Source of the DNA: a bacterium
GTDB taxonomy: Bacteria > Chloroflexota > Anaerolineae > Anaerolineales > Villigracilaceae
Direction of reading: 5' to 3'
Length of the DNA: 34,698 nt
Assembly: GCA_036170295.1 (NCBI GenBank)
Contig: JAVHOY010000190.1
Span: forward strand, 1-34,698
The notes under the pieces are model-generated. The model worked only from the letters and a program-made list of their open reading frames with translations. It was not told where the DNA came from and ran no database searches. Numbering within the stretch: the stretch's first letter is position 1; each line of letters starts with the position of its first letter. The position numbers and the translations under genes are program-made. Positions 1 to 33,564 of this stretch are shown one piece after another.

Positions 1-884
1 ATGCGGATATAGCGTCCGTCTTGATCTACAACCAGCACTACGTCTTCCATCGAAGTGAATAATGCGCGCAGATCAGCCTCGGATTTGGAGAGAGCTTCTT
101 CTGATTTTTTGCGTTCGCTAATATCTTGATGCACGGCAAGGAAACCAAGAATTTTTCCATTCTCATCAAGAATGGCGGTATTCGTTCCTGATATGAAGAT
201 AATACGACCATCTTTTGTCTTGTTGACAATATCGCCCGAGATTGTGCCTCCGTTTAGAAGCGTTGCCCAGAAACTTTTGTATTGTTCATCTGGGATAAGA
301 CCAGATTTTATAATACGAGGCGTTTTCCCTAATGCCTCTTCATTTGTATATCCATACACCTTTTCAAAGCCCGGGTTTGTGTATTGAATTACGCCTTCAG
401 GGTCGGTAATGAATACGGCGTTATCAGTTCTGTCAATTCCAAGTTTGAATTTTTGAGCTTCTTGAAACAGGCGCGCATTTTCAAGCGCCAGCGCTAATTG
501 ATCAGAGACTTGTTTAACGAGCAGTTGTTCGTCCGTCGTCCATTCGCGCTCCGCGTTTTCGTCCATGACGCGCAAAACCGACCAATCGCCATAACCTGTT
601 TGAATATCCACCGAATAGGAAGATGCGCCAATCAGTTCGTAGGGACGATGCGCGGACTCGTTGGAAATCAGCGCGGGTTCCGCAACCTTAATTGCAGAGC
701 TGCGCGGCGCGATTTCTTCCGATTTTTGCCGAGCCGTTTGAAGGTCGGGCGCGGACGCGTTTATAGGCGCGGCTGATTCCTTCTCCGCTTTTGGTTTTCG
801 TCTATCTTTGACGCCGCTTTCTTCAGGATGAATCTCCTGAAAAAATTTGTCAAGCCGTTTGTTTATTTTCGGTTTCTTTGGCAT
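1..884 (-). CDS. 5' part of a PAS/GAF-fragment signal transduction protein (possible sensor histidine kinase), truncated by the window edge
   Basis: Hand translation from the ATG at 884 (overlaps the parA 3' end) is open to base 1. It reads MPKKPKINKRLDKFFQEI, then a low-complexity linker, then the half-GAF WTTDEQLLVKQVSDQLALALENARLFQE. A PAS-PAC follows (AVFITDPEGVIQYTNPGFEKVYGYTNEEALGKTPRIIKSG...FLAVHQDISERKKSEE), then the start of a second PAS (LFTSMEDVVLVVDQDGRY). No kinase domain is visible within the window. Confidence 0.85.
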   Translation of the reverse strand, partial: MPKKPKINKRLDKFFQEIHPEESGVKDRRKPKAEKESAAPINASAPDLQTARQKSEEIAPRSSAIKVAEPALISNESAHRPYELIGASSYSVDIQTGYGDWSVLRVMDENAEREWTTDEQLLVKQVSDQLALALENARLFQEAQKFKLGIDRTDNAVFITDPEGVIQYTNPGFEKVYGYTNEEALGKTPRIIKSGLIPDEQYKSFWATLLNGGTISGDIVNKTKDGRIIFISGTNTAILDENGKILGFLAVHQDISERKKSEEALSKSEADLRALFTSMEDVVLVVDQDGRYIR

Positions 885-1641
885 ATTCTATAAGTTCCTC
901 GGCAAGAATGCGGTATTGCGTCGAGCCGCGTGTGTTTGGTTTGTAGCGCGAGATGGGCATGCCCGCGATGGGGCTTTCGCGTAACTTGGTGTCTATTTCG
1001 ATCACGGTGTCAAACACGCCTGCGCCAAATGTCGAGCGCAGTTGTTCGTGGATGTTGCGATGTGTGCGATTTCTTTTGTCCAACATGGTGACGAGGATGC
1101 GATACGCGAGGTTTGAGTTGCCGCCTTCGCGCACGTTGCGGATGAGCGACATCATATTTCGCAGCGCATACGCGGAGAAGTATTCCGCTTGCGTGGGAAT
1201 GAGCAACAGGTCGGCGGCGGTCAGCGCGTTTTGAGTGATGGCGCCGATGGCGGGCGGGCAATCCAGCAGAATAAAATCGTAAGGCGCGGTTTCTAATAGG
1301 GTTGTGATTGCGCGTTGCAAGATGTTTGTGTAGTTTGTCCGCACGGGCAGATATTGTTCGCAGGTTTCAATGCGCGCGCTGGATTGCACAAGGTCGAGGT
1401 TTTCCACATCCGTTTTATAGCGCACGTTTGCCAGCGGTATATTATCCAGCAAAACTTCGCTGGAGGTGTGTTCGGCTTCGCTGGGTTCAAAACCGAGCGA
1501 GAGCGTCAGGTTGGCTTGCGCGTCAAGGTCTATTAATAAAACGCGATGCCCCATATCTACCAGCGCGGCGCCCAGCGAGAGCGTTGTTGTGGTTTTTGCC
1601 ACCCCGCCTTTTTCATTGGATACGGCGATTATCTTTAACAT
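850..1641 (-). CDS. Orphan ParA/Soj/MinD-family ATPase
   Basis: Deviant Walker A KGGVAKTTT, IDLDAQANL, Walker B LDCPP, TMLDKR and a C-terminal RESP..G.PI..Y.P..RG...Y motif; 263 aa; no parB next to it. Confidence 0.93.
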   Translation of the reverse strand: MLKIIAVSNEKGGVAKTTTTLSLGAALVDMGHRVLLIDLDAQANLTLSLGFEPSEAEHTSSEVLLDNIPLANVRYKTDVENLDLVQSSARIETCEQYLPVRTNYTNILQRAITTLLETAPYDFILLDCPPAIGAITQNALTAADLLLIPTQAEYFSAYALRNMMSLIRNVREGGNSNLAYRILVTMLDKRNRTHRNIHEQLRSTFGAGVFDTVIEIDTKLRESPIAGMPISRYKPNTRGSTQYRILAEELIEYAKETENKQTA

Positions 1642-1648
1642 GGTTACC

Positions 1649-4447
1649 TCAACTTGTGGGTTGATCTTTTTGCGGCGCGGTTTTCTTAGGAATAATTTCG
1701 ATGCGGCTTGCGCCTAACGCGCGCTTTAATTCTTCCACTGCGGTTTGGATCATTTCCTGCGGATCGTTCGTTCCGCGAATCTTGGCGGTGATGTCGGTGA
1801 CGAGTCTTTCGCGCGAGGCGCGCGAGGACGTTTCCTCAAAGAGGCGGGCGTTTTCCAGCGCAAGACCCAGCCGCTCCGTAACCGATTCAATGATGTTGAC
1901 TTGCTCCATAGATAACGCTTCGTTGTCTTTGTTTACGCGGATGTTCAAAGCGCCGATTGTCTGTCCGCGCAATTGAATGGGAACGGCAAGCGTATTTTTC
2001 CCATCTTCCAGAAGTAGGTCGGTTTCTGGCGCCGATTTGCGGGTGATGACCTTGCCGCCCATCGCGGTTTGATGATAGCCCAAAACATTTGAGGCGGCTT
2101 TACTTTGCCATGCCTCTGCAATATATTCGCTGAAAACAGACTGCGATTGAGCGAGGGCTTTTTTGCTTTCTTCCAGCAGACGCGCGTTGTCAATGGCGAT
2201 GGCGATTTGATCGGCGAGCAAACTAAGGACGGAAATATCCGAAGTCGTAAACGCGTTTGACTCCGTGCTTTGCACATCCAACGCGCCGATGACTTCTCCA
2301 CGCGCAGATAAGGGCAACGCCATTTCAGAGTGCGTTTCTGGCAGATCGGGATTGTTGAAGTATGCAGCGTCTGCGCCGGTGTCTAAAGCGATGCGCGGCG
2401 CGCCTGTGGCGGTTACGTTTCCTACAATGCCCGTCTGACCGACTTCGAGTTTATGTTCCCTTTTTAGCATCGCCTGTCCGCCGACGCTGTTGGCGGCGCG
2501 TAACACGGCGAAATTTTTATTTTCATTCAATAGAAATATGCCGACATGATAGAAGCCGAAGCGTTCGCTCACGGCGCGGGCGATGAGCGGTAGAAGTCCT
2601 TCCAAATCTTTTTCGGCGGAAATATAACGCGCGATTTCAGCGATGGTTTGCAGCTCGCTTGCGCGCTTTTCGCTTTGCGCCGTCGCCTTCTCCATTTCAG
2701 AAGTGCGTTGCGCGACTCTGTCTTCAAGGCTTGCGATCAATTCTTGAATTTCATCCGCCATACTGTTAAACGTTTTTCCCAAAACGCCGATTTCGTCGTT
2801 GGATTTGATTAGCGCTTTTTGTTTGAAATCGCCTGCGGAAATTTTTTCCGCCGCTTCCGTTAATTGAATGATTGGGTTGGTAAAAAAGTTTGAAACGAAT
2901 AAGGCGATGATTGCGGCAATCATCAAGATGATTGCGCTGGATGTGACTGTTACGCGGGTTTGATTCTGCGTCAGCGCGGCGATGGCGCTGATCGGTTGCG
3001 ACGCGACGACGATCCAATTTGTCCCCGTCACGCGCGCGGCGGCAGATTCCGCCAATTGTCCGCTATTCTCCAACGAGGGCGCTTGGAAGGATTTTTGCAG
3101 TTCCATTCCGCGCAACGCGCTGACAACTTCCGGCTGAGGCGCAAGCAGCGCGTTTTGATTGCCCGCTCTGAGAATATTTTTTCCTTGCAGGTCGAGCAAG
3201 GCTGCGTCGTCTATGTTCATGTAACTTTTATAGAGCAGATCGGGTTTTGAAGAATGACCCAAATTGATAAAATACGCGCTGTCTATGAGGAATGTATATT
3301 CCGTTTTGCTGGAGCGGCTTTGCGCGGCGGCTTGCAAAACGGACTGCAAAACATTAGCTTTATAAGTCGCCAGCAAAACGCCGATGACTTGCTGTTTTGC
3401 GTCGAAGATTGGCACGGCAAAATAAATAATGGGGGAGCTAAATTTTCTGGGAAACAACACGTTGGAAAGATAAGGTTTTTTGGCGTTAAGCGGCTCTGTA
3501 AAGAAAACCTGATTTTGATCAGACGAGTTGATGTTGGACGGAACGGTGTCAAGCAAGTTGCGTCCGTTTGCGTCGAGCAGCGCGTATGAAATAATATCTT
3601 CCGCGTCTTTTTTAGTAAAAGTTTGCAGGGCGTTCAGGGCGTGTTGTTCATGGTCGGAATTTTTTCTTTGGGAGGCTGGCATAGACACATAATTAATAAT
3701 ATCTGCGAGGCTCGCTTCCGTCGTCAGAATCTCGGATTGTTCATTGATGAAATCCGCTAAACTTCCGCTTGTCGAAGCGGCGCTCGCGCGCAAGCTCGCT
3801 TTGGCTTGATCTTGTAGGATAGTTTTGGATGTTATGTAAGTTTGCCAGCCAAGCATGATCAACGGCGTGGCGCTGAGGAAGAGAAACCCCACGATCAATT
3901 TTGTGCGTAGGTTGAATTTTGAAAATCGGCTTGCCACGATGGCGAGGTAGATCGCGCCGAGAATTAACGCGGTGGTCATGCCTGTTTCGGACGAAGAAAC
4001 TGCGGGAATTCTGTTCGTCGTATATTGATCAATAATGACTGTGACGATGGTTGCCAAAAAAGACAGCGCAATGACGCGCCCGATCCACTTGGGAGATAGG
4101 GCATAGACTGCAATAGCGGATATTAAAACAATGTTTGTAACGCCGTTGGGGATGGAGAGTCCTTGTTGAACAAAGACGCGACCAAAGATTGTAACGAGCA
4201 GCGCCGCAATGACCAACAAAACGCCCAGATCGCTTTTTCCGCGCCGACTCAGCCATGCGCCGACGAAGGCAGCCGCAATCGTGAGTAAGATCAAGTACAG
4301 GCTCAGCCCCAGCTGAATAGAGCGACTCACAAACATCGCGCTTGCCGCGATTAAGATAAAAATCACGCCCGTAGAAACGCAGATATTGAACGCATTTTTT
4401 GCGCGTTTTTCTAAATCGCTTTGGCTGTTTTCAATGGACTCTTGCAT
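1649..4447 (-). CDS. Membrane receptor: multi-TM + dCache + HAMP + GAF + split-GAF C-terminal module
   Basis: About 6 N-terminal hydrophobic helices; extracellular Cache-like region (ISYALLDANG...IYFAVPI...GVLLATY); HAMP (PIIQLTEAAEKISAGDF...DEIGVLGKTFNSM); GAF (FYHVGIFLL...ALDVQS...NARL). Confidence 0.88.
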   Translation of the reverse strand: MQESIENSQSDLEKRAKNAFNICVSTGVIFILIAASAMFVSRSIQLGLSLYLILLTIAAAFVGAWLSRRGKSDLGVLLVIAALLVTIFGRVFVQQGLSIPNGVTNIVLISAIAVYALSPKWIGRVIALSFLATIVTVIIDQYTTNRIPAVSSSETGMTTALILGAIYLAIVASRFSKFNLRTKLIVGFLFLSATPLIMLGWQTYITSKTILQDQAKASLRASAASTSGSLADFINEQSEILTTEASLADIINYVSMPASQRKNSDHEQHALNALQTFTKKDAEDIISYALLDANGRNLLDTVPSNINSSDQNQVFFTEPLNAKKPYLSNVLFPRKFSSPIIYFAVPIFDAKQQVIGVLLATYKANVLQSVLQAAAQSRSSKTEYTFLIDSAYFINLGHSSKPDLLYKSYMNIDDAALLDLQGKNILRAGNQNALLAPQPEVVSALRGMELQKSFQAPSLENSGQLAESAAARVTGTNWIVVASQPISAIAALTQNQTRVTVTSSAIILMIAAIIALFVSNFFTNPIIQLTEAAEKISAGDFKQKALIKSNDEIGVLGKTFNSMADEIQELIASLEDRVAQRTSEMEKATAQSEKRASELQTIAEIARYISAEKDLEGLLPLIARAVSERFGFYHVGIFLLNENKNFAVLRAANSVGGQAMLKREHKLEVGQTGIVGNVTATGAPRIALDTGADAAYFNNPDLPETHSEMALPLSARGEVIGALDVQSTESNAFTTSDISVLSLLADQIAIAIDNARLLEESKKALAQSQSVFSEYIAEAWQSKAASNVLGYHQTAMGGKVITRKSAPETDLLLEDGKNTLAVPIQLRGQTIGALNIRVNKDNEALSMEQVNIIESVTERLGLALENARLFEETSSRASRERLVTDITAKIRGTNDPQEMIQTAVEELKRALGASRIEIIPKKTAPQKDQPTS

Positions 4448-4549
4448 AAAATAAATTCCTAAATAGGTGTGCGGTTTTGACGGCGCAACTTAATGTATCA
4501 TCTTTTGGCGGCGACAGATGAATCTTCAACATTCTTACAACGCGTCTTT

Positions 4550-6409
4550 TTATTTTTCTGGCGCGGTTTTGCTTGGCGGTTGCAATTTGATAATCACATC
4601 CGCGTTTTCCAGCAGCGCGCTTAGTTCTTGGGCGGTGGTTTGCAGGATGCTTTCCGTTTGGAACGACGAACCGATTTTAGATGAAATATCGGAAACAACG
4701 CGCTCGCGTTCGGCGCGGCGGGAGGTCTCGTCGAACAGGCGCGCATTTTCAGCGGATAGCGCCACGCGCTCTGCGACGGCGTTGATCAGATCTATTTGAT
4801 CGGCGCTAACGTTTTCTTGACGCGGCATTTGCACACTGAGCGTTCCGATGGTTTCTCCGCGCAACAGAATCGGCACAGCGAATTCTGAGTTTTTATTATT
4901 TGAATCTGCCGCTTCTTCGTTTTCCTTAATCAATGTCGCGCCCAGCGCCGAGTAACGGAAGCCCGTAAATTTTTCTTCCTTGGGCAGGCGACTCCATGTA
5001 TCGCGCAGATATTGACGTTGAATCGCTTCGGCTTCGGCGAGCGTCTTTCGCGTTTGATCGAATAAGCGCGCGTTTTGAATCGCCAGGCTCACTTGTTCTG
5101 CAAGTCCGGACAACACTTCCACGTCTTCGTCTGAGAAGGCGTTAGATTCCGCGCTTTGAATATCCAGCGCGCCTTCGATCTTTCCTGCAATGCTCAAAGG
5201 CAGCGCCATTTCGGAGTGCGTCTCGGGCAAGTCGGGGTTGTTGAAATAGACCACGTCCTGACCCACATCCAGCGCGATGCGCGGCTTGCCTGTGCTGGTT
5301 GCGTAGCCGACGATGCCTTGTTCGCCGATCCTTAACTGATGACCGCGTTTGAGCATTCTCTTCCCGCCTTCGCTGTTTGCCGCCGCGAGAATGGCGTATT
5401 GGCTGTTGGCGTCGTTCAAGAAAATGCCGACGTGATAAAAGCCAAATTGCTGGCTGATCACTTGGGAAATGTAAGGCAACAATTCTTGCAGGCTGACGGT
5501 CGTGTTGATGGATTGCGAAACTTTTGTAATGGCTTCAAATTGTTTGGCGCGCCGTTCGATGTAAGCGACGGCGGTATTTAATTCGATCGTGCGTTCTGAT
5601 ACGCGCGATTCAAGACCGGCAATTAACTCGCGGACTTGTTTGGTTAGTTTGTTGAAAATATCCGCGATCACGGTGAGCTCGTCTGCGCCGCTGACGTGGA
5701 TGGTGTAAACGCCGCCTTTTTGGAAAGTCTCGGCGCTTGCGCGTAATTCAGCCAAAGGGCGGGTGATGCTGAGCGCGATCAGCGTGGAAGCCGTAAGCGC
5801 CAGGAAAAAACCGACGATGACCATGATCAACCCGACGCGACCGCTTTGCTGCGCGTCGTTAAATACTTCGTCGTTTGTTTTAGTAACTTGCGCGACGTTG
5901 TCGTTGACCACTAGCTCAAGCCGAGCGCTAATGTCGTTTCCCAATTTTTGCAGTTGAGACGCCAAACGTGTCGCGTCGCTGTTATTTCCCGCCATGTGCG
6001 CTTTTTGCAGGTCTGTGATTTGCTGTCGGTAGATTTCCAACGAGCGGATAATCTGGTCAATGGTTTGGGTTTGCGTCGCGTTGGTTGCAAGGCTTTTTGC
6101 TTCTTTTAGATTTCGCAGAGCTTGATTGCTGTCGTCTAGCGCTTCAAAGGGACTGGCGGCTAGGTCTTGAATATAGCGATTAAGATCTAATTGCGAAACC
6201 ACCACGCGCTGCGATGCAATCAAAAGTAGGCGTTCTATTTTTGTATCCACATTTGTAACTTGTCCAAGACGCGCCACCAGCGAGTTCAGGCTGAATAGAA
6301 TGATTGGCGCTATTGAGCCGGCAAGCAGCATGATCAGCATGAAACTGCCGATGATGCGTATGCGTACCGGTATTCGTCGTAAAAACTTGTCAAAAACCCA
6401 TTTAGCCAT
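4550..6409 (-). CDS. Membrane receptor: four-helix-bundle-like sensor + HAMP + GAF + split-GAF module
   Basis: Start moved to the ATG at 6409 (MAKWVFDK, AGAAGG upstream), which removes the overlap with the upstream gene. Two TM helices flank an all-helical ~150-aa region; HAMP and the conserved GAF follow. Confidence 0.85.
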   Translation of the reverse strand: MAKWVFDKFLRRIPVRIRIIGSFMLIMLLAGSIAPIILFSLNSLVARLGQVTNVDTKIERLLLIASQRVVVSQLDLNRYIQDLAASPFEALDDSNQALRNLKEAKSLATNATQTQTIDQIIRSLEIYRQQITDLQKAHMAGNNSDATRLASQLQKLGNDISARLELVVNDNVAQVTKTNDEVFNDAQQSGRVGLIMVIVGFFLALTASTLIALSITRPLAELRASAETFQKGGVYTIHVSGADELTVIADIFNKLTKQVRELIAGLESRVSERTIELNTAVAYIERRAKQFEAITKVSQSINTTVSLQELLPYISQVISQQFGFYHVGIFLNDANSQYAILAAANSEGGKRMLKRGHQLRIGEQGIVGYATSTGKPRIALDVGQDVVYFNNPDLPETHSEMALPLSIAGKIEGALDIQSAESNAFSDEDVEVLSGLAEQVSLAIQNARLFDQTRKTLAEAEAIQRQYLRDTWSRLPKEEKFTGFRYSALGATLIKENEEAADSNNKNSEFAVPILLRGETIGTLSVQMPRQENVSADQIDLINAVAERVALSAENARLFDETSRRAERERVVSDISSKIGSSFQTESILQTTAQELSALLENADVIIKLQPPSKTAPEK

Positions 6410-6429
6410 TTCTTGATACCTTCTTGATT

Positions 6430-7440
6430 TTAGGGCTTGGCTTGTTCCCAAAAACTATTGGTAAAAATAGTTTCTGGATTCGGCGTGGCGTTCAAAATCT
6501 TGTATGAATATAATGTGTCAATCACACGCAGTATATTTGCGCGATTTGTGTAGCCCAGCGGAAGCCCGCTCGCTTGCACAAGTTTGGAGATTTCCTTCAT
6601 CATTGCGAGCTGATGGTCGCGCGTTTGCGTGTGGCTGTCGTCGTATTTTAGAACAATATCCACCGCCTCTTCGGGATGGTCAACGGCGTATTGCCAGCCG
6701 CGCAGACTGGCGCGCAACATACTTGTGCAGAGTTGCGGATGATCCTTTGCGAATTGCGCGGAGGTGAACAGTACGTCCCCGGGAAAATCCAAACCGTAAT
6801 CTGCATAGTTGATAATCGTTAAATCTTCCGGCTTTATGCCGCTTTCGAGCACAGTGTAATATTCGTTGTAGATCATTGCCGAGGCGACGTCTAAATCGCC
6901 GTTGATGAACGCGTCCATGCTAAAGCCTTGAGAGACCAAAGTAAAGTCGTTGGGGCTGATGTTTTCCTTTGCAATCAGCGCGTCAAATTGCGCTTCCCAA
7001 TTTCCAAGCCAGATGCCGACTTTCTTTCCCTTAAAATCGCTTGGCTTATTGATGCCCGAACTTTTTTTTGCGAGCAACAGCAATCCGTTTGTTTGTTGGA
7101 TCTGCGCGATACTGATCAGATCGTTTGCGCCTTGATTGGCGACGATAATATCTGCAAGCAGATTTGTGCCAAATTGGGCGCTGCCGGCGCGTACCGAGTT
7201 GACTGGCGATATATCAGGTCCGCCTGGTCGGATGGTCAGGTCAATTCCTTCTTCCTGATACCAGCCTTTATCCAACGCAACGTAATATCCTGCAAATTGA
7301 GCCTGCGTGACCCATTGCAGATTGAGCGTTATGGGCGTTGTCGCGTTCTGCGTAGCGGTTGGCGTTTGGGCGCAGGCGGCGATCATGACGACACAAAGGA
7401 TCGTTATAAACAATCGAGTTAAATTTGAAATTTTCATCAT
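6430..7440 (-). CDS. NMT1/THI5-like substrate-binding lipoprotein
   Basis: Lipobox IAAC; family motifs LQWVTQAQFAGYYVA..KGWY..EG, DFKGKKVG and YGLDFPGDVLFTS. Confidence 0.88.
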   Translation of the reverse strand: MMKISNLTRLFITILCVVMIAACAQTPTATQNATTPITLNLQWVTQAQFAGYYVALDKGWYQEEGIDLTIRPGGPDISPVNSVRAGSAQFGTNLLADIIVANQGANDLISIAQIQQTNGLLLLAKKSSGINKPSDFKGKKVGIWLGNWEAQFDALIAKENISPNDFTLVSQGFSMDAFINGDLDVASAMIYNEYYTVLESGIKPEDLTIINYADYGLDFPGDVLFTSAQFAKDHPQLCTSMLRASLRGWQYAVDHPEEAVDIVLKYDDSHTQTRDHQLAMMKEISKLVQASGLPLGYTNRANILRVIDTLYSYKILNATPNPETIFTNSFWEQAKP

Positions 7441-7451
7441 GGTTTTTCCTT

Positions 7452-10286: not shown

Positions 10287-10300
10287 CGCTCTCTAAAAAA

Positions 10301-11296: not shown

Positions 11297-11302
11297 TATG
11301 AT

Positions 11303-13249: not shown

Positions 13250-13331
13250 AGGTTTGCTCCTTGCTGAAAACTCTGTTCTTTTTTGCGGAAGAATTTATAA
13301 AATTGGCAAGCATAAAAATAACTCCTGCGAC

Positions 13332-16262: not shown

Positions 16263-16264
16263 AG

Positions 16265-18007: not shown

Positions 18008-18018
18008 GGTCTTCTCTT

Positions 18019-19431: not shown

Positions 19432-19474
19432 AATTTTCCTGACGAGCTAATTTATACCTGTATCTTCAATGCGA

Positions 19475-21841: not shown

Positions 21842-21849
21842 TAAATTCC

Positions 21850-23574: not shown

Positions 23575-23576
23575 GC

Positions 23577-25424: not shown

Positions 25425-27106
25425 AATTTATTTTCGCCTTGCGCGTTTGTGTTTTTATCGTCCGCTTGCAGGAAGCCGACGCTGATCTCGGCTTCTTTTA
25501 GATCGAATACTTTACGCAATTCGATAGTGGCGTTGCGGACCACCGATTCAATATCCAGCGTTTCGCGCACACGCGATGAGACGTTGGCGATCATTTGGTT
25601 GCGCAGCGCGTTCTTTTGAGCTTCGTCTACGAGACGGCTGTTTTCCAGCGCCAACGAGACTTGATCCGCTATTTTTTCAACGAGCTCTTGCTCATGCTCC
25701 GACCAGCTGGCAAAAGCGCCTTTGCGGCGCAGTTTGATATTCCCAATCGTTTGCCCGTGCAGTGTTAAAGGCACATTCAAGTCGTCGGCGCTGACTGCGT
25801 CGCTGTTCTTTTGCGAAAAAATTGGGCGCACTCCCGCAGGCGTATATTGATAGGCGGGGGCATGACGTTTGGTTAATTTTGACCAAGTCTCATGCGTTTG
25901 GAAAGATAACTTGGTTTCTAATTCGTCGGCGATACTTTTTGTCTCGTTACTGAGGCGCAGATTTTCAAGCGAAATTGCGACCATATCCGCTACCGTTTGC
26001 AAGACTTCAGCGTCTTCGACGTGAAACGCTTGCGTTTGTTCCGAATGTAAATCCAACGCGCCGATCACCTCGCCGCGAACCGCGAGCGGCAACGTTATGC
26101 GCGCGCGGATGGTTGGGAAGTTCGCGTCGTGGGCGTAATTTGCGCTGTCTGTGTCTGAAATGATCTGGCGCTGATTTTGTTCAACCACGAGGTAAAGCGG
26201 ATTTCTTCTATTCGGTTCTATGTGAAATCCTTGACCGATATATTGCTTGCCGTTCTCGGAAGACGCCGCCTGAAGAAAAGCGGTATTCTTTTGTTCGTTC
26301 AAAATGTAAAGTCCAACATGCGAAACGCCAAATTGTTCCGCCATAAGATTTACGGTCGCATCCATTAATTCCGTTATGTCTTGAATGGCAGCCACTTGAC
26401 GCACCACATAAGACGCGGATACAAGCTGATCGTTGCGGTTGTTGATCGTCTCGGCGTATGCCGCTCTTTCTTCGCTGCGCTGGGCGGTTTGAGTTAAGGT
26501 TTCGTTTGCGACGCTGGTTTGCAGGTTTTCAGCCCAGACCTTTTCATTGTTTCCCCAGAGCCTTGCAATGAAAAAACTCGCTATAAGTATTAAGGAGACC
26601 GATCCGATATTTGTAAACAGTCGCATTAATTGAGCGCGTTGGAGCAGGGCGGCTTGAACCGACGCTATAGATTCGGTTAAGGTCTCAAAAGTTGGGTCCA
26701 CATTTTCGCTGTCTATGCGTTTAGCCCCCTCTACGTCGCCTGATTTTAGCGCCTGTATTTCTTGGTCTAGAAAATTCATATAACTTTTAAGCGTTTCTTT
26801 TGCGGCAAGCAAATCGGCGTTGCGCGGATTCAACGCAAGAACCTGATTGAGCGTTTCCGTTATTTTTGAACGGGTTTGGAACATGAGCTGCGCCGTCTCT
26901 TGGTCTACCGTTCCTTCGCCGATCATTTGCCATTCGGTGGCTGATATTTTGTAGGCAAGCGCTTGAACGGAAGCCAGCAGCGTTTCGGCTTGCCGACTCT
27001 GATCGACAATTTGGTTTAAGACGACGATGCCGATCGAGATGAATAGCGCGATAGCGACAAACGTCGCGTATTTTGCCCATTGGGGAAGTTGACGAGAGGC
27101 GGTCAT
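25421..27106 (-). CDS. Membrane receptor: four-helix-bundle-like sensor + divergent GAF + split-GAF module
   Basis: Two TM helices flank a helical region; no clear HAMP; GAF (SHVGLYIL...LPLAVRGEVIGALDLHS); ATGA overlap. Confidence 0.85.
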   Translation of the reverse strand: MTASRQLPQWAKYATFVAIALFISIGIVVLNQIVDQSRQAETLLASVQALAYKISATEWQMIGEGTVDQETAQLMFQTRSKITETLNQVLALNPRNADLLAAKETLKSYMNFLDQEIQALKSGDVEGAKRIDSENVDPTFETLTESIASVQAALLQRAQLMRLFTNIGSVSLILIASFFIARLWGNNEKVWAENLQTSVANETLTQTAQRSEERAAYAETINNRNDQLVSASYVVRQVAAIQDITELMDATVNLMAEQFGVSHVGLYILNEQKNTAFLQAASSENGKQYIGQGFHIEPNRRNPLYLVVEQNQRQIISDTDSANYAHDANFPTIRARITLPLAVRGEVIGALDLHSEQTQAFHVEDAEVLQTVADMVAISLENLRLSNETKSIADELETKLSFQTHETWSKLTKRHAPAYQYTPAGVRPIFSQKNSDAVSADDLNVPLTLHGQTIGNIKLRRKGAFASWSEHEQELVEKIADQVSLALENSRLVDEAQKNALRNQMIANVSSRVRETLDIESVVRNATIELRKVFDLKEAEISVGFLQADDKNTNAQGENKL

Positions 27107-28713
27107 TGAACTTTATCCTTTGTTTCGTCAGCGTCGTCTTTTTGATTCGCGTTCAATTCAATCACGATTTCCGCCGCTTCAAGCGCGCGCCCTAATTCTC
27201 GCGCCGTCGTTTGCAGAATACCGTTCATGCTGGTTGAAGCCCAAACTTTTGCGGTGATTTCGCTTGCCAGTCTTTCGCGCGCGGCAATGGATTGACTTTC
27301 TTCCACCAGACGCGCATTCTCCAGCGCCAGCGCGGCTTGCGTGGCAATGGCTTCAATGAGATTTTTTTGTTCGAGCGGCAAATCTTCCTTTGTTGCCATT
27401 TCGATCTGACCGATGATCTGATCGCGCAGAGTCAGCGGGATCGCAATTTGATTTTGTCCCGTTTCGTTCTCGCCCAGCGAATATTCCAGCCGCTGTTCAG
27501 CCGCAGTGGACGACCATGCGTTTTGTAAATATTGTCTTTGCGTAGCGCGCATTTCAGCCAGACTTTGCTGCGCTTCTTTGAACAAGCGCGCGTTTTCAAA
27601 CGCAACCGCAATTTCGTTTGCCATGTTTTGATAAGTCTCGGCGTCCTGTTGTAAAAAGGCGTTTTCCTGTTTGGATTGCAATTCTAACGCGCCGATGACG
27701 CGCTCGCCTATCGCTAAGGGAATGGCAATCTGAGATCGCGTATAGGGAAGCAAAGGATTGTCAAAGCGGACGGGGTTGTCTCCCGTATCTTGCGCGATGC
27801 GCGTCTGCCTCATGCGGATTGCCGCGCCGACGAGATTTTTTCCTTTGACGTCCATGCGATATTTATTCTCGCGCAACACTTTACCCGCGTCGCCGGTGGC
27901 TTCTTTGAGCTCAGCCCACCGTTCGGTGACGTCCAGTAAAAAGACGGCGGCATAGTAACATTCAAATTCGTCGCCGATTAAACGCGTCGCGCGCGCCAGT
28001 AATTCATCGGGGTCTAAAATCGAAGTGATCGAACGCCCAATTTCGTTAACTCTTCTTAACTTCGTCGTGCGCTCCAACACTTTATCTTCGAGGCTGCCGC
28101 GTTGCTTCTCTAATTCGTTCAGCGCTAAAGATGTTTGTTTTTGCGCCTCAACAAATTCTTTCTCCAGCCGTTGAAAGCCGAGAATAATTACCGCGCCAAA
28201 CAACAAGATGACGGCGGTTCCGCTGATCCAATCCGCGAGTTTTGCTTCGGCGATAGCGCTCAGCGCTTTGACGTCGCCGTTCAGCATTAAGTAGCCAAAT
28301 AGGATGCAGGTAATCATGATCAGCGCGGTGGCGATCATGCCGGCTCTTGGCGAGAGCAACATGGTCGCAAGAACGATCAGCGCTAAAAAGAAAATACTGC
28401 TGTCTCCCAAAATATTGTAGCGGATCAATTCGCTTACGCTGATGACGTAAACGCTAAGCAGAAACACTCCAATACGAATTTGGTATGGAAAGCGTATGAA
28501 CGTTACAACCGCGATCATTACATAAACTGCGACAAACACAGAATTGAGCGCGGCATCCCCCGTGCTGCTGACCGCTGAAACTAAAATGACGGCGCCAAAG
28601 ATAAGCGCTCCAATCAGCAAAGGCAAGACAAATCCCTCGCGCCAGTTTTTATACAGCGCGCGAGTCGCTTCATCCGAATTAAAGGCTTTAGGGAATGTGA
28701 ATTTGCTTGCCAT
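27103..28713 (-). CDS. Membrane receptor: multi-TM intramembrane sensor + GAF + minimal split-GAF module
   Basis: About 6 TM helices, LEDKVLERT helix, GAF (YYAAVFLLD...FDNPLLPYTRSQIAIPL...ALELQS). Confidence 0.86.
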   Translation of the reverse strand: MASKFTFPKAFNSDEATRALYKNWREGFVLPLLIGALIFGAVILVSAVSSTGDAALNSVFVAVYVMIAVVTFIRFPYQIRIGVFLLSVYVISVSELIRYNILGDSSIFFLALIVLATMLLSPRAGMIATALIMITCILFGYLMLNGDVKALSAIAEAKLADWISGTAVILLFGAVIILGFQRLEKEFVEAQKQTSLALNELEKQRGSLEDKVLERTTKLRRVNEIGRSITSILDPDELLARATRLIGDEFECYYAAVFLLDVTERWAELKEATGDAGKVLRENKYRMDVKGKNLVGAAIRMRQTRIAQDTGDNPVRFDNPLLPYTRSQIAIPLAIGERVIGALELQSKQENAFLQQDAETYQNMANEIAVAFENARLFKEAQQSLAEMRATQRQYLQNAWSSTAAEQRLEYSLGENETGQNQIAIPLTLRDQIIGQIEMATKEDLPLEQKNLIEAIATQAALALENARLVEESQSIAARERLASEITAKVWASTSMNGILQTTARELGRALEAAEIVIELNANQKDDADETKDKVQ

Positions 28714-28714
28714 G

Positions 28715-31700
28715 TTATGAGCCTTTTTGACCTTTGTTCTCTTCAGGCTTTACTTGGATCTTTGTGTAACGCGCTCCGGTAATGCGCGTCAATTCGCTGG
28801 CGGTGGTCATCATAATGGATTGAATGTCGGTAGACCTGCGGATTTTTCCGCTCACTTCGTAGATCAGCCTTTCGCGTTCCGCTTGCAGGCGGATCTGTTC
28901 GAGCAGGCGCGCATTGGCGATGATCGCCGCAAGGCTGCCGCCTAATGTGCCGAGCATTTCTTCGTCGTTTTCCGCGTAAGCGTCAAGTTGTTCGCTTTCC
29001 ACGTTCAACACGCCGAGCAATTCGTTGCGATAAACCAACGGGATGGCAAGTTCGGAGCGCGTATTGGAACTAATCTCAAAATAGCGCGGGTCTGCGGCGA
29101 CGTCTTTGATGCGTAAAGGTTTTCTGTACGCCGCCGCCCAGCCGATCACGCCGCTGCCAATCGGAATCCGCAATTGAGTAATATCTTCGGCGTATCCGAT
29201 GGAAGCTTTGACTTCAAGGTTTTTGTTTTCAGCGTCCGCCAGTAAGATGATGACGCGGTCGCCGCCCAGCGTTACTTGTAAGCCGCTCACCGCGCTTTCC
29301 AACGCTTCATCGAGCGTTGTGCCAGATGCGACTGTGGTGGTGATGTGGTGCAGAAGACGATGCTGCGAAAGATGTTCCTGCGTCTCTGCGAACAATTCCG
29401 TATTGATTACCGCAATCGCAATTTGATCCGCAAGGATTTGCAGAATGCGTAAACTTTCTTCGGTGAATGCGTAAGGCTTTGCGCTTTGCACATCTAACAC
29501 GCCTAGTATGCGCTCGCCGACTTTCATCGGAATGGCGGCTTCGGCGCGCGTTTCAGGAAAGAGGGGATTCGCGTAGTAGGTCGCGTCTTTTGTCGTGTCA
29601 TTAATGACCAGCGCTTCGCCGCGACTGGCGACAAATCCGACGATGGATTTTGAGCCGACGCCGATCTTGTAGCCTGCGCGTTTCATTTGCGCCCCAGCTT
29701 CGCCCGTCGCTTCGCGGATCACAGCGAATTCTCCAGACAGGTCGCGCAGGAATACGGACGCATGATAAAAATTAAAACGCTCGCGAATTAAGTTGACCGA
29801 TTTGGCGAGCAGCTCGTCAATATTTAGCGAACCGCTAATATCGCGGGCGATTTCTGCGGCGGTTTCTAGTTGCACCGCTTTGCGTTGACTCTCCTCTAAA
29901 AGATGGACGTTATGCACCACGCCCGCCACTTGAGCGGTGACGGTGGTTAGAAATTTCAAGTCGTCTTCGTCGAAGGCGTGTTCGCGCTCGGCGTCCTGAA
30001 TGATTAACGCGCCGATGGGTTTGTTCTGCACCAACATGGGAGCGCCCATCCATGAACGCGCCGCTTTTCCCACGATCTTTGCGCCCAGCTTGGCGGCTTT
30101 CCGTTCTGTATCTTCCACCAGCATCAAAGGTTGAAGCGTGCGAATGAGTATGGAGGTTAACCCTTCTCCTAACGGGAAAGACTCAATCGCTAGAATTTGT
30201 CCGTCTTCGTAACCGAAAGGCACATTGATGGTGTTTGTTTTTTCATCGTAAAGCGCGACGAGCAAGTTGTAATCGCCGATGATCTCTTGTATTTTTTTAT
30301 GCAGCGCCTGATAGAAATCTTGCAGGCTGGAGGATTTTGAGATGGCTTCATTAATAGAAGCGAGCGACTCCACTTCGCGGAGGTGTTTTTCCGTTTGCTG
30401 GATCGCGTCCGCTTTATCTAAAGAGACAGACATCAGCTCCGCTAGATTTGTGTAGGGTTGCAGCGCCGCGCTTGTGAGAGTTCCTTGCCGCATCCCCATC
30501 ATCATGACGACTTCTAGTTTGCCGTTTTTTCTGATGGGCAGATAGGCGGCGCTTTCAATCTTTATGCTTTGCGCGAAGTTCTTTAACGCGCTGGGGCTTT
30601 CGCCGACTTTGGGCGTGGCGATGATCGGTCCGCGTGAAAGATATTTTTCAATTTCTTCCGTTGCGATTGAAATGCGTTTCGGCAGCGCGTCGAGCGGCAA
30701 GCCGATTTTTGTTTCGTCTGAAGACGAGAATATTTCCAGCCCATCGTTTTGCGCGCGCAACCACACCACGACGTAAGGCGCTTCCTTTAGAATTTGATTG
30801 CCGATTTTAAGGATTTTATCTTCCGCGTTTGATTCCGCGATCAATCGGCTGGAGCGATACAAGCGCGCAAGTTCGTCAAAGTCAATCTGGCTGATTTCGG
30901 TTAGCCCGGCGGTTTGAATTGCCGTCGCCAGTTGACTGGCAAGCGTTTGCAGCATGACGATTGTCTCTGCGCCAAACGCATCTTCTTGCGCGCTTTGCAC
31001 ATCCAAAACGCCCAAGACCAAAGCGCCTCTTGAAATGGGCAGAGTCGCTTCAGAGCGCGTCTCTGGCAACAATTCATTCTTCAAGTGGAGTTCGTCTTCC
31101 GAAACATCCGAAGCGATGCGCGGTTGATTATTCGCGCCGACCCAACCCATGATGGAGGTTGAGCCGACTTCGAGTCGGTAGTTGTTTTCCTTCAATCCTT
31201 GTGTGGCGGGACCGAACCCCGCTTTGAATTCAAGATATTTTCCGCTGCGATCCAGCATGAACACGCTGGCTTGATAAAAATCGAATTGCTTAATCAGCAG
31301 TTCCACTGTGGAACTGAGCATCTCGTCGAGGTTGGAAAGCGTCGTGAAATTTTGAGCCACCTCGGCGGCGGTGTTGATCTGGCGCGTGCGCTCGTCCACT
31401 TTTTGTTCAAGCGAGCGATACGTGCCGACGAGCTCGTCCGCCATTTTATTGAACGAACTGGCAAGGAAGCCTACTTCGTCGGCGCTTAATACTTCCGCGC
31501 GCTGGCTAAAATCGCCTTCCGCGAATTTTTGCGTAATCTCCGAAAGCGCGCTCAAGGGCTTGACGACGCGGTTCGCGCCGAGCGTCAGCACAATCGTCGT
31601 GGCGACGAGCGTTCCCAGAATCAATAAAATTGTGAACGGCGCTAGGCTTGTGATCTGCCTGTAAATATCCGCTTCTTTTGCTTCTAAAACAACGCCCGCC

Positions 31701-32599
31701 TGCATGAAGGGAAGCCATTGAATTTGCGCCAGCGCCGCTTCGCCTTTGGATGTGGTAATGTCCATTGCGGCTGGTTTTAATTCGCTCTTTTTGATCAAGT
31801 CTGATAATTGCGCCGCGATCTTAATCTGCGTCGGCGCGGACGCGTCGGCGAGAAGAAATGCGTCGCTATTTGAGTCGCGATAGACGACTTGTCCGCTTGA
31901 AAGAATAAAATAAGTATTGGCTAGCGGAGACAAGCCGTTGATTGGCTGAGTCATTCTGGATAGATTTTTGCCTTCGGTAATTCCCACTAAAGTTCCAAGC
32001 GTCGAGCCGCGCGCCGTATTGTATTTGTAGGCGGTTATGAAGACGAACTTGTTTTCATAAAGCGGAGACAACCCGTATAGTGCGAGCGAGGGATGTTCTT
32101 CCGAAATTTGATCGAACATAGACGGGTCAACGATCTTGCCCTGCCATTGCGGGTCGCTTGAGATTTTGACGTTCCCGTTGAAATCAATCAAAATAAAATT
32201 GTTAAAAGACGGCGATTCTTCCAGCGCGTTCAGGCTTTCAAACTCTTTCAAAAAATCGGCGCGGATTTTATCAAATTCTTCGGGGCGTTGCGGGTTGGCG
32301 TGCAAGCCAAGTTCGATTAATAGTTTAAAGTCGTTTTTATCAAGCAGATGTTTAAGTTGATCTTCTTTATTTTTTACTTCGGCGTTTACCGTTCTTACTT
32401 GCGTATCAAGCAGGTTTTGATACTGAGCGACGGCTTGCTCGCGTAACAGCGCGCGCGCGCGAAAATAAGCCGCGCCCGCCATCAAGGCGAAGGGGATGAA
32501 AGTGAAGACTAAGAGCGTTCTTACAAGCGTGCCTGCCAGACTGCCCTTAAATCTTTTTTGCTTAGCGTCAAGGATGGGCGTCGTTTGAGTTTTTGTCAT
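28715..32599 (-). CDS. Large membrane receptor: Cache + HAMP + five tandem GAF domains + orphan GAF-start tail
   Basis: TM-Cache-TM and HAMP (DEVGFLASSFNKM). The GAF repeats contain LDVQS, AYLPI (degenerate), SWMGAPM, LDVQS and LNVES, followed by the AERERL...EL tail. Confidence 0.9.
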   Translation of the reverse strand: MTKTQTTPILDAKQKRFKGSLAGTLVRTLLVFTFIPFALMAGAAYFRARALLREQAVAQYQNLLDTQVRTVNAEVKNKEDQLKHLLDKNDFKLLIELGLHANPQRPEEFDKIRADFLKEFESLNALEESPSFNNFILIDFNGNVKISSDPQWQGKIVDPSMFDQISEEHPSLALYGLSPLYENKFVFITAYKYNTARGSTLGTLVGITEGKNLSRMTQPINGLSPLANTYFILSSGQVVYRDSNSDAFLLADASAPTQIKIAAQLSDLIKKSELKPAAMDITTSKGEAALAQIQWLPFMQAGVVLEAKEADIYRQITSLAPFTILLILGTLVATTIVLTLGANRVVKPLSALSEITQKFAEGDFSQRAEVLSADEVGFLASSFNKMADELVGTYRSLEQKVDERTRQINTAAEVAQNFTTLSNLDEMLSSTVELLIKQFDFYQASVFMLDRSGKYLEFKAGFGPATQGLKENNYRLEVGSTSIMGWVGANNQPRIASDVSEDELHLKNELLPETRSEATLPISRGALVLGVLDVQSAQEDAFGAETIVMLQTLASQLATAIQTAGLTEISQIDFDELARLYRSSRLIAESNAEDKILKIGNQILKEAPYVVVWLRAQNDGLEIFSSSDETKIGLPLDALPKRISIATEEIEKYLSRGPIIATPKVGESPSALKNFAQSIKIESAAYLPIRKNGKLEVVMMMGMRQGTLTSAALQPYTNLAELMSVSLDKADAIQQTEKHLREVESLASINEAISKSSSLQDFYQALHKKIQEIIGDYNLLVALYDEKTNTINVPFGYEDGQILAIESFPLGEGLTSILIRTLQPLMLVEDTERKAAKLGAKIVGKAARSWMGAPMLVQNKPIGALIIQDAEREHAFDEDDLKFLTTVTAQVAGVVHNVHLLEESQRKAVQLETAAEIARDISGSLNIDELLAKSVNLIRERFNFYHASVFLRDLSGEFAVIREATGEAGAQMKRAGYKIGVGSKSIVGFVASRGEALVINDTTKDATYYANPLFPETRAEAAIPMKVGERILGVLDVQSAKPYAFTEESLRILQILADQIAIAVINTELFAETQEHLSQHRLLHHITTTVASGTTLDEALESAVSGLQVTLGGDRVIILLADAENKNLEVKASIGYAEDITQLRIPIGSGVIGWAAAYRKPLRIKDVAADPRYFEISSNTRSELAIPLVYRNELLGVLNVESEQLDAYAENDEEMLGTLGGSLAAIIANARLLEQIRLQAERERLIYEVSGKIRRSTDIQSIMMTTASELTRITGARYTKIQVKPEENKGQKGS

Positions 32600-32607
32600 T
32601 ACTAAAG

Positions 32608-33060
32608 TTAACTATACTCCCAAACAGGTTCTCCACTTAAGATGCGGCGGATCTGATCGGGGAAGCGGTCGGGGTCGAGCGGTTTTCCTAGAAAACCGTC
32701 GAAGCCTGAAGTCTTCGCCTTGTTCATTTGCTCTATGCTGGCTTCGGCGGTGACCGCGACAATCGGCACATCTTTGAAGCGTTCTGAAGCGCGGATTTTT
32801 TTCAACGCGCCGTAACCGTCTTCGTAAGGCAGGCGGATGTCCATGAGGATCAAGTCGAGTCGCGGCAGCGTATCCGCGTATTCCACCACCTCATAGCCCG
32901 ATGTTTTCCATTCGCAGTGAATTCCTAAATATCCGAGCATGCGCGCGATCAACACAAAATTGGAGACATTGTCTTCCACCACTAGCACAGCCGCGTCTTT
33001 GGGAATATTGGGTTTGTGGATAGGTTGCGTATCAAATACGCCGGGCGTTTGGTCAGACAT
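32608..33060 (-). CDS. Single-domain response regulator (DivK/CheY-like receiver)
   Basis: VVEDN, ILMDIRLP (phospho-Asp), AVTA and GKP motifs; start moved to the ATG at 33060, preceded by AAGGAG. Confidence 0.9.
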   Translation of the reverse strand: MSDQTPGVFDTQPIHKPNIPKDAAVLVVEDNVSNFVLIARMLGYLGIHCEWKTSGYEVVEYADTLPRLDLILMDIRLPYEDGYGALKKIRASERFKDVPIVAVTAEASIEQMNKAKTSGFDGFLGKPLDPDRFPDQIRRILSGEPVWEYS

Positions 33061-33445
33061 TATTGCTCCTTGTAAATCGCTCGATTTGCTGGGCGAGCGT
33101 GTCAATGTCAATCGGCTTTTGAATATATCCGTCGCATCCCGCCTCCAGCGATTTTTCTCTATCGCCGCGCATGGCGTTGGCAGTCACTGCAATAATCGGA
33201 ATTTTTGAAAATTTTTCAATCGCTTTTATTTTGGCGGTCAATGTATAACCGTCCATATCGGGCATGTTAATATCCATGAGGATAACGTCAACGCCGCCGT
33301 TTTCCAACTTTTCGATGGCTTGTTTTGCGTTCACAGCCTCGACCATTTCGTAGCCTTCCGAGTTCAAAACGCGGCGGATTAAGTTTCTGTTGTCAGGATT
33401 GTCTTCCACATACAGTATAGTGCTTTTTTTTTCTGTCGGCGTCAT
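33053..33445 (-). CDS. Single-domain response regulator, DivK-like
   Basis: YVEDN, ILMDINMPDMDG and IPIIAVTANAMRGDREKSLEAGCDGYIQKPID; GGAG RBS upstream. Confidence 0.92.
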   Translation of the reverse strand: MTPTEKKSTILYVEDNPDNRNLIRRVLNSEGYEMVEAVNAKQAIEKLENGGVDVILMDINMPDMDGYTLTAKIKAIEKFSKIPIIAVTANAMRGDREKSLEAGCDGYIQKPIDIDTLAQQIERFTRSNNV

Positions 33446-33557: not shown

Positions 33558-33564
33558 GATGTTG

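What the first reader, a model, noticed from the sequence alone, without database searches (positions are those of the whole stretch)
1..33445. Candidate MCP-independent receptor array: 13 output-less GAF receptors, ParA, two receivers and a putative kinase in one operon
Seen: 19 co-oriented, mostly abutting genes, 13 of which are membrane receptors with varied inputs and a common cytoplasmic GAF-based region. None has HisKA/HATPase, MCP signalling, GGDEF/EAL, cyclase or PP2C domains, and the window has no cheA/W/R/B. Known: chemosensory operons follow this logic of many catalytically inert receptors, a shared kinase, stand-alone receivers and a ParA-like positioner (PpfA, ParC). Inference: this is an analogous signal-integration system that uses GAF modules in place of MCP hairpins and CheW. 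I do not know of a described system like it, but could not search.
Basis: partly seen in the sequence, partly recalled or inferred. Interest (0 to 1): 0.92.

Follow-up and report, generated by a model that had tools for sequence, protein, structure and literature searches.

The report
Split-GAF sensor chain feeding one kinase
Thirteen membrane sensor proteins with no enzyme of their own each end in a piece of a GAF domain that likely plugs into a matching gap in the protein of the next gene, which would link them in gene order onto one histidine kinase, a way of wiring many sensors to one kinase that I did not find described.

Summary
Observation confirmed: 19 co-oriented genes, including 13 output-less TM-GAF receptors, ParA and two receivers. 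The cut PAS protein continues on contig C114 as an intact hybrid histidine kinase. A PLP-enzyme-REC fusion and an EamA gene follow. The layout is conserved across Anaerolineae.

The wiring looks like a chain, not an MCP-like lattice. Every receptor ends in a GAF first third (plug). Receptors 2-13 and the kinase N-terminus carry a GAF lacking that third (socket); receptor 1 has no socket. Plug type predicts the NEXT gene's socket in 177 of 177 genus junctions but its own socket in only 133 of 163 genes. A plug-socket residue rule held in 185 of 185 held-out neighbour pairs versus 130 of 184 within one protein. The complex prediction gave weak support (0.54 vs 0.00). The gene after ParA starts with a basic partner-type peptide (40 of 43).

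Binding and signal relay are inferred, not shown. Ten literature searches found no description. The scan noted this system before on other DNA, once with the chain idea (e1-7674339).

The parts
33053..33445 (-). Single-domain receiver 1 (130 aa), phospho-acceptor Asp, Thr and Lys visible in the translation
   Evidence: Pfam Response_reg 7.6e-32; translation
32608..33060 (-). Single-domain receiver 2 (150 aa from the ATG at 33060); 81-93% identical across the family, a marker of the system
28715..32599 (-). Receptor 1 (chain start): 2 TM, dCache, HAMP, complete GAFs, C-terminal plug (28739-28882), no socket
27103..28713 (-). Receptor 2: MASE11, GAF1, socket (27301-27459), plug (27142-27285)
25421..27106 (-). 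Receptor 3: 2 TM with extracytoplasmic domain, GAF1, socket (25634-25792), plug (25466-25609)
23577..25424 (-). Receptor 4: 2 TM, weak HAMP, GAF1, socket (23817-23975), plug (23649-23792)
21850..23574 (-). Receptor 5: multi-TM, GAF1, socket (22048-22206), plug (21880-22023)
19475..21841 (-). Receptor 6: dCache, HAMP, GAF1, socket (19652-19810), plug (19484-19627)
18019..19431 (-). Receptor 7: 2 TM, GAF1, socket (18208-18366), plug (18043-18186)
16265..18007 (-). Receptor 8: multi-TM, GAF1, socket (16448-16606), plug (16283-16426); likely ATG start about 18007 (the frame is open from 18283)
13332..16262 (-). Receptor 9: multi-TM, dCache, HAMP, GAF1, socket (13512-13670), plug (13344-13487)
11303..13249 (-). 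Receptor 10: 2 TM, GAF1, socket (11492-11650), plug (11327-11470)
10301..11296 (-). NMT1/THI5-like solute-binding lipoprotein, likely ligand partner of receptor 11
   Evidence: Pfam NMT1 1.7e-26; position before the 920-946 aa receptor in relatives
7452..10286 (-). Receptor 11: multi-TM, dCache, HAMP, GAF1, socket (7641-7799), plug (7473-7616)
6430..7440 (-). NMT1/THI5-like solute-binding lipoprotein, likely partner of receptor 12
   Evidence: Pfam NMT1 8.9e-52
4550..6409 (-). Receptor 12: 2 TM, HAMP, GAF1, socket (4736-4894), plug (4571-4714); its cytoplasmic module was folded
1649..4447 (-). Receptor 13 (chain end): multi-TM, dCache, HAMP, GAF1, socket (1844-2002), kinase-type plug (1676-1819)
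850..1641 (-). Dedicated ParA/Soj-like ATPase; its stop overlaps the kinase start; 72-86% identical in 23 of 24 same-genus genomes
3..884 (-). N-terminal 294 aa of the hybrid histidine kinase: basic partner-type peptide (about residues 1-20), low-complexity linker, minimal socket (471-629), PAS; continues on C114 to PAS-GAF-HisKA-HATPase-REC-REC
33564..33636 (-). tRNA-Gly(CCC) with its own sigma70-type promoter and terminator; flanks the operon, not part of it

Best explanation
The operon encodes 13 enzyme-less membrane receptors whose C-terminal GAF fragment likely completes an incomplete GAF domain in the protein of the next gene, which would link them in gene order into one chain ending at the N-terminus of a hybrid histidine kinase that likely receives their combined signal. 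SHOWN by sequence: each receptor ends in helix1-helix2-strand1 of a GAF (plug). Receptors 2-13 and the kinase carry a GAF lacking helix2-strand1 (socket). Receptor 1 has a plug only and the kinase a socket only. Plug types track the next gene's socket through deletions and rearrangements. INFERRED: each composite GAF would take one input from its own receptor (sensor, HAMP, GAF1, then the helix entering the socket) and one from upstream (the plug). It would pass the sum down its last helix, which runs on into the next plug, and finally into PAS-PAS-GAF-HisKA. The kinase would phosphorylate its own receivers, the two free receivers and the REC of a threonine-synthase-like PLP enzyme, whose product the EamA protein might export. 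A ParA dimer would grip the basic N-terminal peptide of the kinase and position the chain. I put physical chain docking at about 0.8, and signal relay along the chain at about 0.75 given docking.
For: (1) Anatomy: receptors 2-13 lack about 32 alignment columns of the second GAF (helix2, strand1) that receptor 1 has, and all 13 end with that element. (2) AlphaFold2 on receptor 12's module (81 sequences, pLDDT 90): the socket's last helix and the plug's first helix form one 45-residue helix, and the plug strand stays unpaired. (3) Census of 56 locus groups: first receptor socket-less in 48 of 49, other receptors with one socket in 359 of 365, kinase with at least one socket in 47 of 52, plug count equal to socket count in 38 of 45 full arrays (1-13 receptors). 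Held-out loci: 66 of 67 and 183 of 184. (4) Typing against three 13-receptor references, confident calls only: in 19 same-genus genomes the plug matched the next gene's socket in 177 of 177 junctions and its own socket in 133 of 163 genes. 29 chimeras of 6 distinct kinds all keep the neighbour match. Other genera gave 51 of 54 vs 18 of 32. (5) Reference-free check on 305 genes: best-hit congruence 5671 of 6193 for the next socket vs 4185 of 6193 for the own socket. (6) Top coupling Z 9.6 for neighbour pairs vs 4.4 within one protein and 4.0-5.3 in 8 shuffles. It is a size/charge pair: a small plug residue goes with Arg, a large one with Gln/Glu. It held in 185 of 185 held-out neighbour pairs vs 130 of 184 within one protein. 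(7) Complex of receptor 13 socket+plug with the kinase socket: 0.54, best of 3 controls 0.00, runs agree in at least 88% of contacts, partner pLDDT at least 72. The tool's verdict is weak support; at 0.60 or under only 18 of 157 solved complexes passed, as did both passing mismatches of 215. (8) Sensors are swapped against chain position (29 of 107 confident calls) while GAF1 stays with the socket (140 of 141). GAF1 DNA is as similar between paralogues as the junction is and about nine times longer. (9) Some paralogous kinases consist only of a peptide, three sockets and the kinase core. (10) The peptide follows ParA in 40 of 43 loci vs 18 of 416 receptor N-termini, even when the next gene is a receptor. 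This matches the charged N-terminal partner peptides described in PMC10241942 (passages).
Against: No binding, localisation or phosphotransfer experiment exists. The complex score is only a weak pass, gives no interface, and may reflect likeness to solved GAF domains. Comparing the neighbour-pair coupling map with that of intact GAFs was inconclusive: mean Z at intact top pairs was 0.50 vs 0.40-0.64 in shuffles. The genomes are kin, so 177 junctions reflect perhaps 6-7 independent events. Counts do not balance in 7 of 45 arrays. Of these, G117 shows a leading socket, and G022 has a split gene. G055 (11 plugs, 13 sockets) and the second system in G171 (1 plug, 3 sockets) and G059 (3 plugs, 5 sockets) are real imbalances. 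In distant families most plugs are alike, so the residue rule has little power there (36 of 40 neighbour vs 28 of 35 same-protein pairs). G001 kept an intact ParA but lost the array, kinase and enzyme, so ParA may have another role. How 13 membrane-anchored dimers fit a chain that rises one GAF per step is unexplained.
Confidence: 0.6

Rival explanations
1. The chain is real but only a scaffold: it gathers and positions receptors and kinase in fixed order and number, with ParA, while signals reach the kinase by another route such as a ligand bound by the conserved GAF1 or side contacts.
For: All pairing evidence shows who binds whom, not that conformational change travels. The model has its lowest internal confidence (block pLDDT 73-82) around the linker between the GAF1 output helix and the socket strands. 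GAF1 is the most conserved part.
Against: The kinase socket's last helix runs straight on towards PAS, GAF and HisKA. Some paralogous kinases have no input domain other than sockets.
Confidence: 0.2
2. One reading: a chemoreceptor-like array or hub in which any receptor's tail docks on the shared kinase or on any other receptor.
For: Plugs in G055 and G042 are much alike and their kinases have three sockets. The second system of the own genome has a three-socket kinase. Receptor number varies from 1 to 13.
Against: The kinase here has one socket, matched by one conserved plug type whatever sensor carries it. The order of plug-socket pairs survives every deletion typed in the genus (177 of 177).
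Confidence: 0.09
3. Each receptor is self-contained: the plug completes its own socket, or the partner subunit's in a homodimer, and receptors act on the kinase by other contacts.
For: Socket and plug sit side by side in 359 of 365 non-first receptors. A single-chain model cannot show a homodimer swap.
Against: Plug-only and socket-only proteins sit at the two ends of nearly every array. Some proteins have a socket followed by complete GAFs or by more sockets. Same-protein pairing is broken in 30 of 163 genes and the residue rule fails in 54 of 184.
Confidence: 0.06
4. The neighbour match is a genetic by-product: the array grows and shrinks by recombination at a hot-spot between socket and plug, so plug n and socket n+1 are inherited together without binding.
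For: They are linked on the DNA. The junction codes for a conserved helix (57% DNA identity among paralogues).
Against: No DNA motif at the junction; identical runs of 12 nt or more occur in 4 of 66 paralogue pairs there vs 24 and 20 of 66 in two GAF1 segments. It does not explain complementary missing structure, the plug-only start and socket-only end, a size/charge-complementary residue pair, or the complex score.
Confidence: 0.05

Closest known systems
Chemosensory arrays (MCP-CheW-CheA-CheY) positioned by PpfA (Rhodobacter) or ParC-ParP (Vibrio)
   Same: Many enzyme-less receptors with varied inputs, one kinase, single-domain receivers and a ParA-like ATPase in one operon (array and ParC/PpfA description: PMC11407121 passages; PMC10241942 passages).
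   Different: No MCP hairpin, CheW, CheA, CheR or CheB in the operon. The kinase is a HisKA hybrid. The inferred wiring is a serial, position-specific chain rather than a hexagonal lattice. No adaptation system is visible.
Tandem GAF regulatory modules (PDE2A, PDE5, cyanobacterial cyclase, multi-GAF histidine kinases)
   Same: GAF1 is a canonical GAF (best match 3trc_A, Z 22.2, rmsd 2.1 over 165 residues; Foldseek E about 1e-9). A long helix links one GAF to the next.
   Different: Here the stack is cut inside a GAF and spread over separate genes. Tandem-GAF structures align across both domains only at rmsd 12-16 A.
PKS/NRPS docking domains and pilus donor-strand complementation (recalled, no call)
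   Same: A C-terminal element of one protein completes or binds a site on the next, giving an ordered chain that follows gene order, with a start unit and an end unit.
   Different: Those are enzymes or fibres with unrelated folds. Here the joint is a split sensory domain and the chain ends in a kinase.
Plant ethylene receptors (TM-GAF-kinase)
   Same: GAF-bearing membrane receptors form higher-order complexes and bind a downstream kinase (PMC2799528 passages).
   Different: Those receptors keep their output motifs and their GAFs are whole; no ordered plug-socket chain was described in the passages I saw.
ParA/MinD positioning ATPases with N-terminal partner peptides (Soj-ParB, McdA-McdB, PpfA)
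   Same: Soj-like sequence (E 3.5e-38 to 1wcv) with basic residues kept at the two C-terminal positions aligned. The downstream gene starts with a basic peptide and a low-complexity linker.
   Different: The putative partner is a histidine kinase, a receptor (G027) or a 128-aa socket protein (G025). The Walker A motif reads GVAKT where Soj has GVGKT.

Membership tests
Chemosensory system | Receptors with an MCP signalling domain | tested here: not met
   No MCPsignal hit in 13 of 13 receptors; 0 of 5 genomes
Chemosensory system | CheA-type kinase and CheW adaptor | tested here: not met
   Kinase is HisKA-HATPase-REC-REC. CheW was found in 0 of 8 family genomes, and in 5 of 15 system-bearing genomes at other loci
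Chemosensory system | Receptor clustering in cells and control of motility | not testable with these tools
   Needs imaging and mutants; a Tad-type ATPase was found in 14 of 15 system-bearing vs 5 of 17 other genomes, confounded by kinship and genome size
Hybrid histidine kinase (HisKA class) | HisKA with His box, HATPase N/G boxes, fused receivers | tested here: met
   Pfam HisKA 6e-22, HATPase_c 2e-32, two REC stretches; motifs visible
Sensor histidine kinase (for the 13 receptors) | Transmitter domains after the sensor | tested here: not met
   None in Pfam or NCBIfam; the proteins end about 50-80 aa after the last GAF helix
GAF domain (GAF1) | Full GAF fold | tested here: met
   Model pLDDT above 90 over most of GAF1; Z 22.2, rmsd 2.1, 165 aligned to 3trc_A
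GAF domain (socket or plug alone) | Full GAF fold within one chain | tested here: not met
   Socket lacks helix2-strand1; four strands only and the plug strand unpaired in the model
ParA/Soj positioning ATPase | Deviant Walker A with signature Lys; basic DNA-binding surface; no membrane-targeting helix | tested here: met
   AAA_31 4e-48; alignment to Soj structures keeps the signature Lys and two C-terminal basic positions; one Gly-to-Ala change in Walker A; below NCBIfam equivalog cut-offs
ParA/Soj positioning ATPase | Partner protein with a charged N-terminal peptide that stimulates the ATPase | tested here: inconclusive
   Peptide pattern in 40 of 43 downstream genes vs 18 of 416 receptors (pattern defined after seeing examples); binding not tested; G001 has ParA without such a neighbour
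Threonine synthase (downstream PLP-REC protein) | NCBIfam ThrC equivalog cut-off and activity | tested here: inconclusive
   Best 263.6 vs cut-off 303 and 157.1 vs 167.1 (G009 orthologue); genomes also hold 30-36% identical REC-less paralogues

The most novel reading that the evidence does not exclude
A new class of bacterial signalling machine: a gene-order-encoded receptor polymer. Split GAF domains act as specific docking joints, so up to 13 different sensors assemble into one ordered chain, or a small tree where two- and three-socket hubs occur. The chain sums their inputs serially into a single histidine kinase positioned by its own ParA, and sensors can be swapped freely without rewiring.
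Probability: 0.55. Interest if true: 0.95.

Novelty: categorically new. Interest (0 to 1): 0.88.

Why it matters
Chemoreceptor arrays are the main known way (my own knowledge) for a bacterium to feed many inert sensors into one kinase. This would be a second, unrelated solution, using fold complementation and gene order, more like an enzyme assembly line than a lattice. It is present in 25 of 25 sampled genomes of the family. Close relatives are labelled Ca. Villigracilis, filamentous bacteria abundant in activated sludge (PMC10746286 passages), whose signalling I found nothing on. The claim is cheap to test: plugs (about 48 aa) and sockets can be expressed alone, and the sequences predict a 13 by 13 binding matrix and a compensatory residue pair. 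If specific, the pairs would also be a natural set of orthogonal protein connectors.

Tried and rejected
The 50%-representative search was swamped by multi-GAF proteins and said nothing about distribution. The coupling-map comparison with intact GAFs was no better than shuffles. Foldseek and VIA-align hits covered GAF1; the socket and plug were barely tested, so no claim is made about their fold matches. The protein atlas did not answer in five tries. No RNA holder was listed, so expression and co-transcription are untested. The perfect sigma70 site at 33678-33649 and the hairpin at 33557-33533 looked like an operon promoter with attenuator, but belong to tRNA-Gly. Promoter and terminator counts in both halves of the window were within 1.5 sd of shuffle levels. 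The plasmid collection held no match covering 80% of the socket-plug query. One 'broken' neighbour pair (G203) came from my ORF caller dropping genes overlapped by opposite-strand frames. G203 was dropped but is in the and 108 counts. Searches also left out G022, G033, G275b and G016; one search also left out G055. Of the 54 of 401 phylum genomes matching the module, the single-hit ones I inspected were mostly partial matches to multi-GAF kinases, so I do not count them as systems. A motility role was considered but rests only on a kin-confounded co-occurrence. Literature searches with no description of the system: (listings and abstract starts only). Searches were for comparators. Subscription journals are mostly not in the library.
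Full report
CHECK OF THE OBSERVATION. The window is bases 1-34698 of contig C190. Nineteen minus-strand genes run from 33445 to the contig end. Thirteen are membrane proteins (2-8 predicted TM segments) with GAF domains and no output domain. The rest are two receivers, two NMT1/THI5 lipoproteins, ParA and a cut PAS protein. Relatives of the C-terminal module number 1863 at E<=1e-8 among 3763 candidates; the taxon names shown are Anaerolineales and Chloroflexi.

THE MISSING END. Orthologous loci showed that ParA is followed by a hybrid kinase, a PLP enzyme fused to REC and an EamA gene. In the own genome these lie on C114 and C354 at 65-91% identity. Each join is an exact 55-nt overlap found only at those two ends. 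The kinase reads peptide, linker, half-GAF, PAS, PAS, GAF, HisKA, HATPase, REC, REC, about 1050 aa. A stand-alone Hpt lies on C116.

DISTRIBUTION. Receiver 2 matched at E<=1e-35 in 35 of 401 phylum genomes. These include 25 of 25 of the family and scattered genomes of the order, class and one further family; three weak matches at 44-49% are doubtful. The socket-plug profile gave 6-8 scored matches in 25 of 25 family genomes. The PLP-REC orthologue (E<1e-170) was in 14 of 15 system-bearing and 0 of 17 other genomes (I chose the groups from earlier calls). G001 (97% complete) keeps only ParA behind tRNA-Gly. Other phyla were not searched systematically.

WHAT THE SHARED MODULE IS. Aligning the 13 tails shows GAF1, then a second GAF missing about 32 columns that receptor 1 has (helix 2, strand 1), then a final helix-helix-strand that aligns with the start of GAF1. 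I call these socket and plug. The kinase begins with a minimal socket. AlphaFold2 leaves the plug at the end of a continuous helix with its strand unpaired. In 56 locus groups the first receptor had no socket in 48 of 49, later receptors had one in 359 of 365, and kinases had at least one in 47 of 52. Plugs equalled sockets in 38 of 45 full arrays (sockets were called from GAF spacing of 145 aa or less). G275 showed two plug-only receptors ahead of a two-socket receptor, with four plugs and four sockets on a contig that starts inside the first gene; G033 is similar.

WHO PAIRS WITH WHOM. Among confident calls in 19 other genomes of the genus, plug n was followed by socket n+1 in 177 of 177 junctions, while a gene's own plug and socket agreed in 133 of 163. 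Shortened arrays contain chimeras such as socket 7 with plug 9 followed by socket 10 (6 kinds, 29 cases). Other genera gave 51 of 54 against 18 of 32. A reference-free version agreed. Sensors, which lie between a plug and the next socket on the DNA, are often exchanged (29 of 107), while GAF1 stays with its socket (140 of 141). The 54-nt junction is no more similar between paralogues than the 489 nt of GAF1 and shows no motif. Breakpoints confined to it therefore suggest selection to keep neighbours matched; that step is inference.

COVARIATION. Covariation between plug and next socket peaked at Z 9.6, against 4.4 within proteins and 4.0-5.3 in shuffles. Other top pairs joined the plug strand to the socket's last strand in antiparallel register. 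The top pair is a small residue with Arg, or a large residue with Gln/Glu. It held in 211 of 213, 115 of 116 and 36 of 40 classifiable neighbour pairs in genus, family and other families, against 162 of 196, 67 of 104 and 28 of 35 within proteins (this is the discovery set). In 67 of 77 new loci sharing no identical protein end with the earlier set, it held in 185 of 185 against 130 of 184 (these cover only the first few genes and are kin). The comparison with intact-GAF couplings was inconclusive.

COMPLEX PREDICTION. The one complex job scored 0.54 against 0.00 for the best of 3 controls, with at least 88% contact agreement and partner pLDDT of at least 72. The tool calls this weak support: 116 of 157 solved and 2 of 215 mismatched pairs passed, but only 18 solved ones passed at 0.60 or under. 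A split GAF may pass by likeness to solved GAFs.

PARA. It is Soj-like and overlaps or abuts the next gene, which begins with a basic peptide in 40 of 43 loci against 18 of 416 receptors. The peptide moves with position: in G027 it heads a receptor, and in G025 a variant heads a 128-aa socket-only protein. Charged N-terminal partner peptides are the general rule for these ATPases (PMC10241942 and PMC11407121, passages). In seven ParA-less arrays only 1 kinase matched the pattern. However, the second-system kinases carry a similar peptide with no ParA seen in the fetched loci, and G001 keeps ParA alone.

MECHANISM. Most likely a chain from receptor 1 to receptor 13 to the kinase, each joint a GAF rebuilt from two proteins, with signal passed along the connecting helices and the whole positioned by ParA. 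Anatomy, synteny and neighbour matching are shown. Binding, relay, phosphotransfer and positioning are inferred. The physiological output is unknown; the best lead is phosphorylation control of the PLP enzyme, with EamA as a possible exporter. Rivals are a scaffold-only chain (0.2), a promiscuous hub (0.09), self-completion (0.06) and a recombination by-product (0.05).

COMPARISON AND NOVELTY. It works like a chemosensory system in logic but fails the membership tests. Its inferred joint resembles assembly-line docking and donor-strand complementation (recalled, no call). Ten searches listed no description of it. I saw listings and abstract starts, plus passages of four papers, and no supplements. 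The scan's own notes describe the operon on other DNA several times, and e1-7674339 states the chain idea. My reading was in the notebook before those look-ups. Verdict: a real feature, apparently undescribed, categorically new if docking is confirmed; interest 0.88.

Noticed in passing
G000 contigs C36 (L042) and C31 (L131): A second, paralogous system in the same genome: a plug-bearing gene end, a soluble kinase with peptide and three tandem sockets, a second PLP-REC; C31 holds part of a two-socket receptor with a plug. Similar loci occur in G171 and G059.
   Followed up: partly
L030:512-2788: Minimal module with no kinase nearby: HAMP-GAF-plug receptor, ParA, and a 128-aa peptide-plus-socket protein.
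   Followed up: partly
L037:19079-19879: G001 retains an intact system-type ParA between tRNA-Gly and a GidA-family gene after losing both flanking parts of the operon.
   Followed up: partly
window 33564-33636 and 33712-34698: tRNA-Gly(CCC) and a polyprenyl synthetase gene flank the operon; the synthetase gene is upstream in several same-genus loci too.
   Followed up: yes
L040:2350-3585 and C354: Threonine-synthase-like PLP enzyme with a C-terminal receiver, 85-88% identical within the genus (G009 orthologue as query), followed by EamA and a convergent kinase-kinase-OmpR-type trio.
   Followed up: partly
window 6430-7440, 10301-11296: NMT1/THI5 lipoproteins without ABC partners in the operon; in relatives the second one sits before a 920-946 aa receptor and is absent in many arrays.
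   Followed up: partly
L046 and L047 (G055, G042): Membrane-bound kinases with three tandem sockets in ParA-less versions of the operon; G055 also has a 2521-aa multi-GAF protein ending in a plug.
   Followed up: partly
L032:4761-6347: A 529-aa gene with no Pfam hit inserted among the receptors in G039.
   Followed up: no
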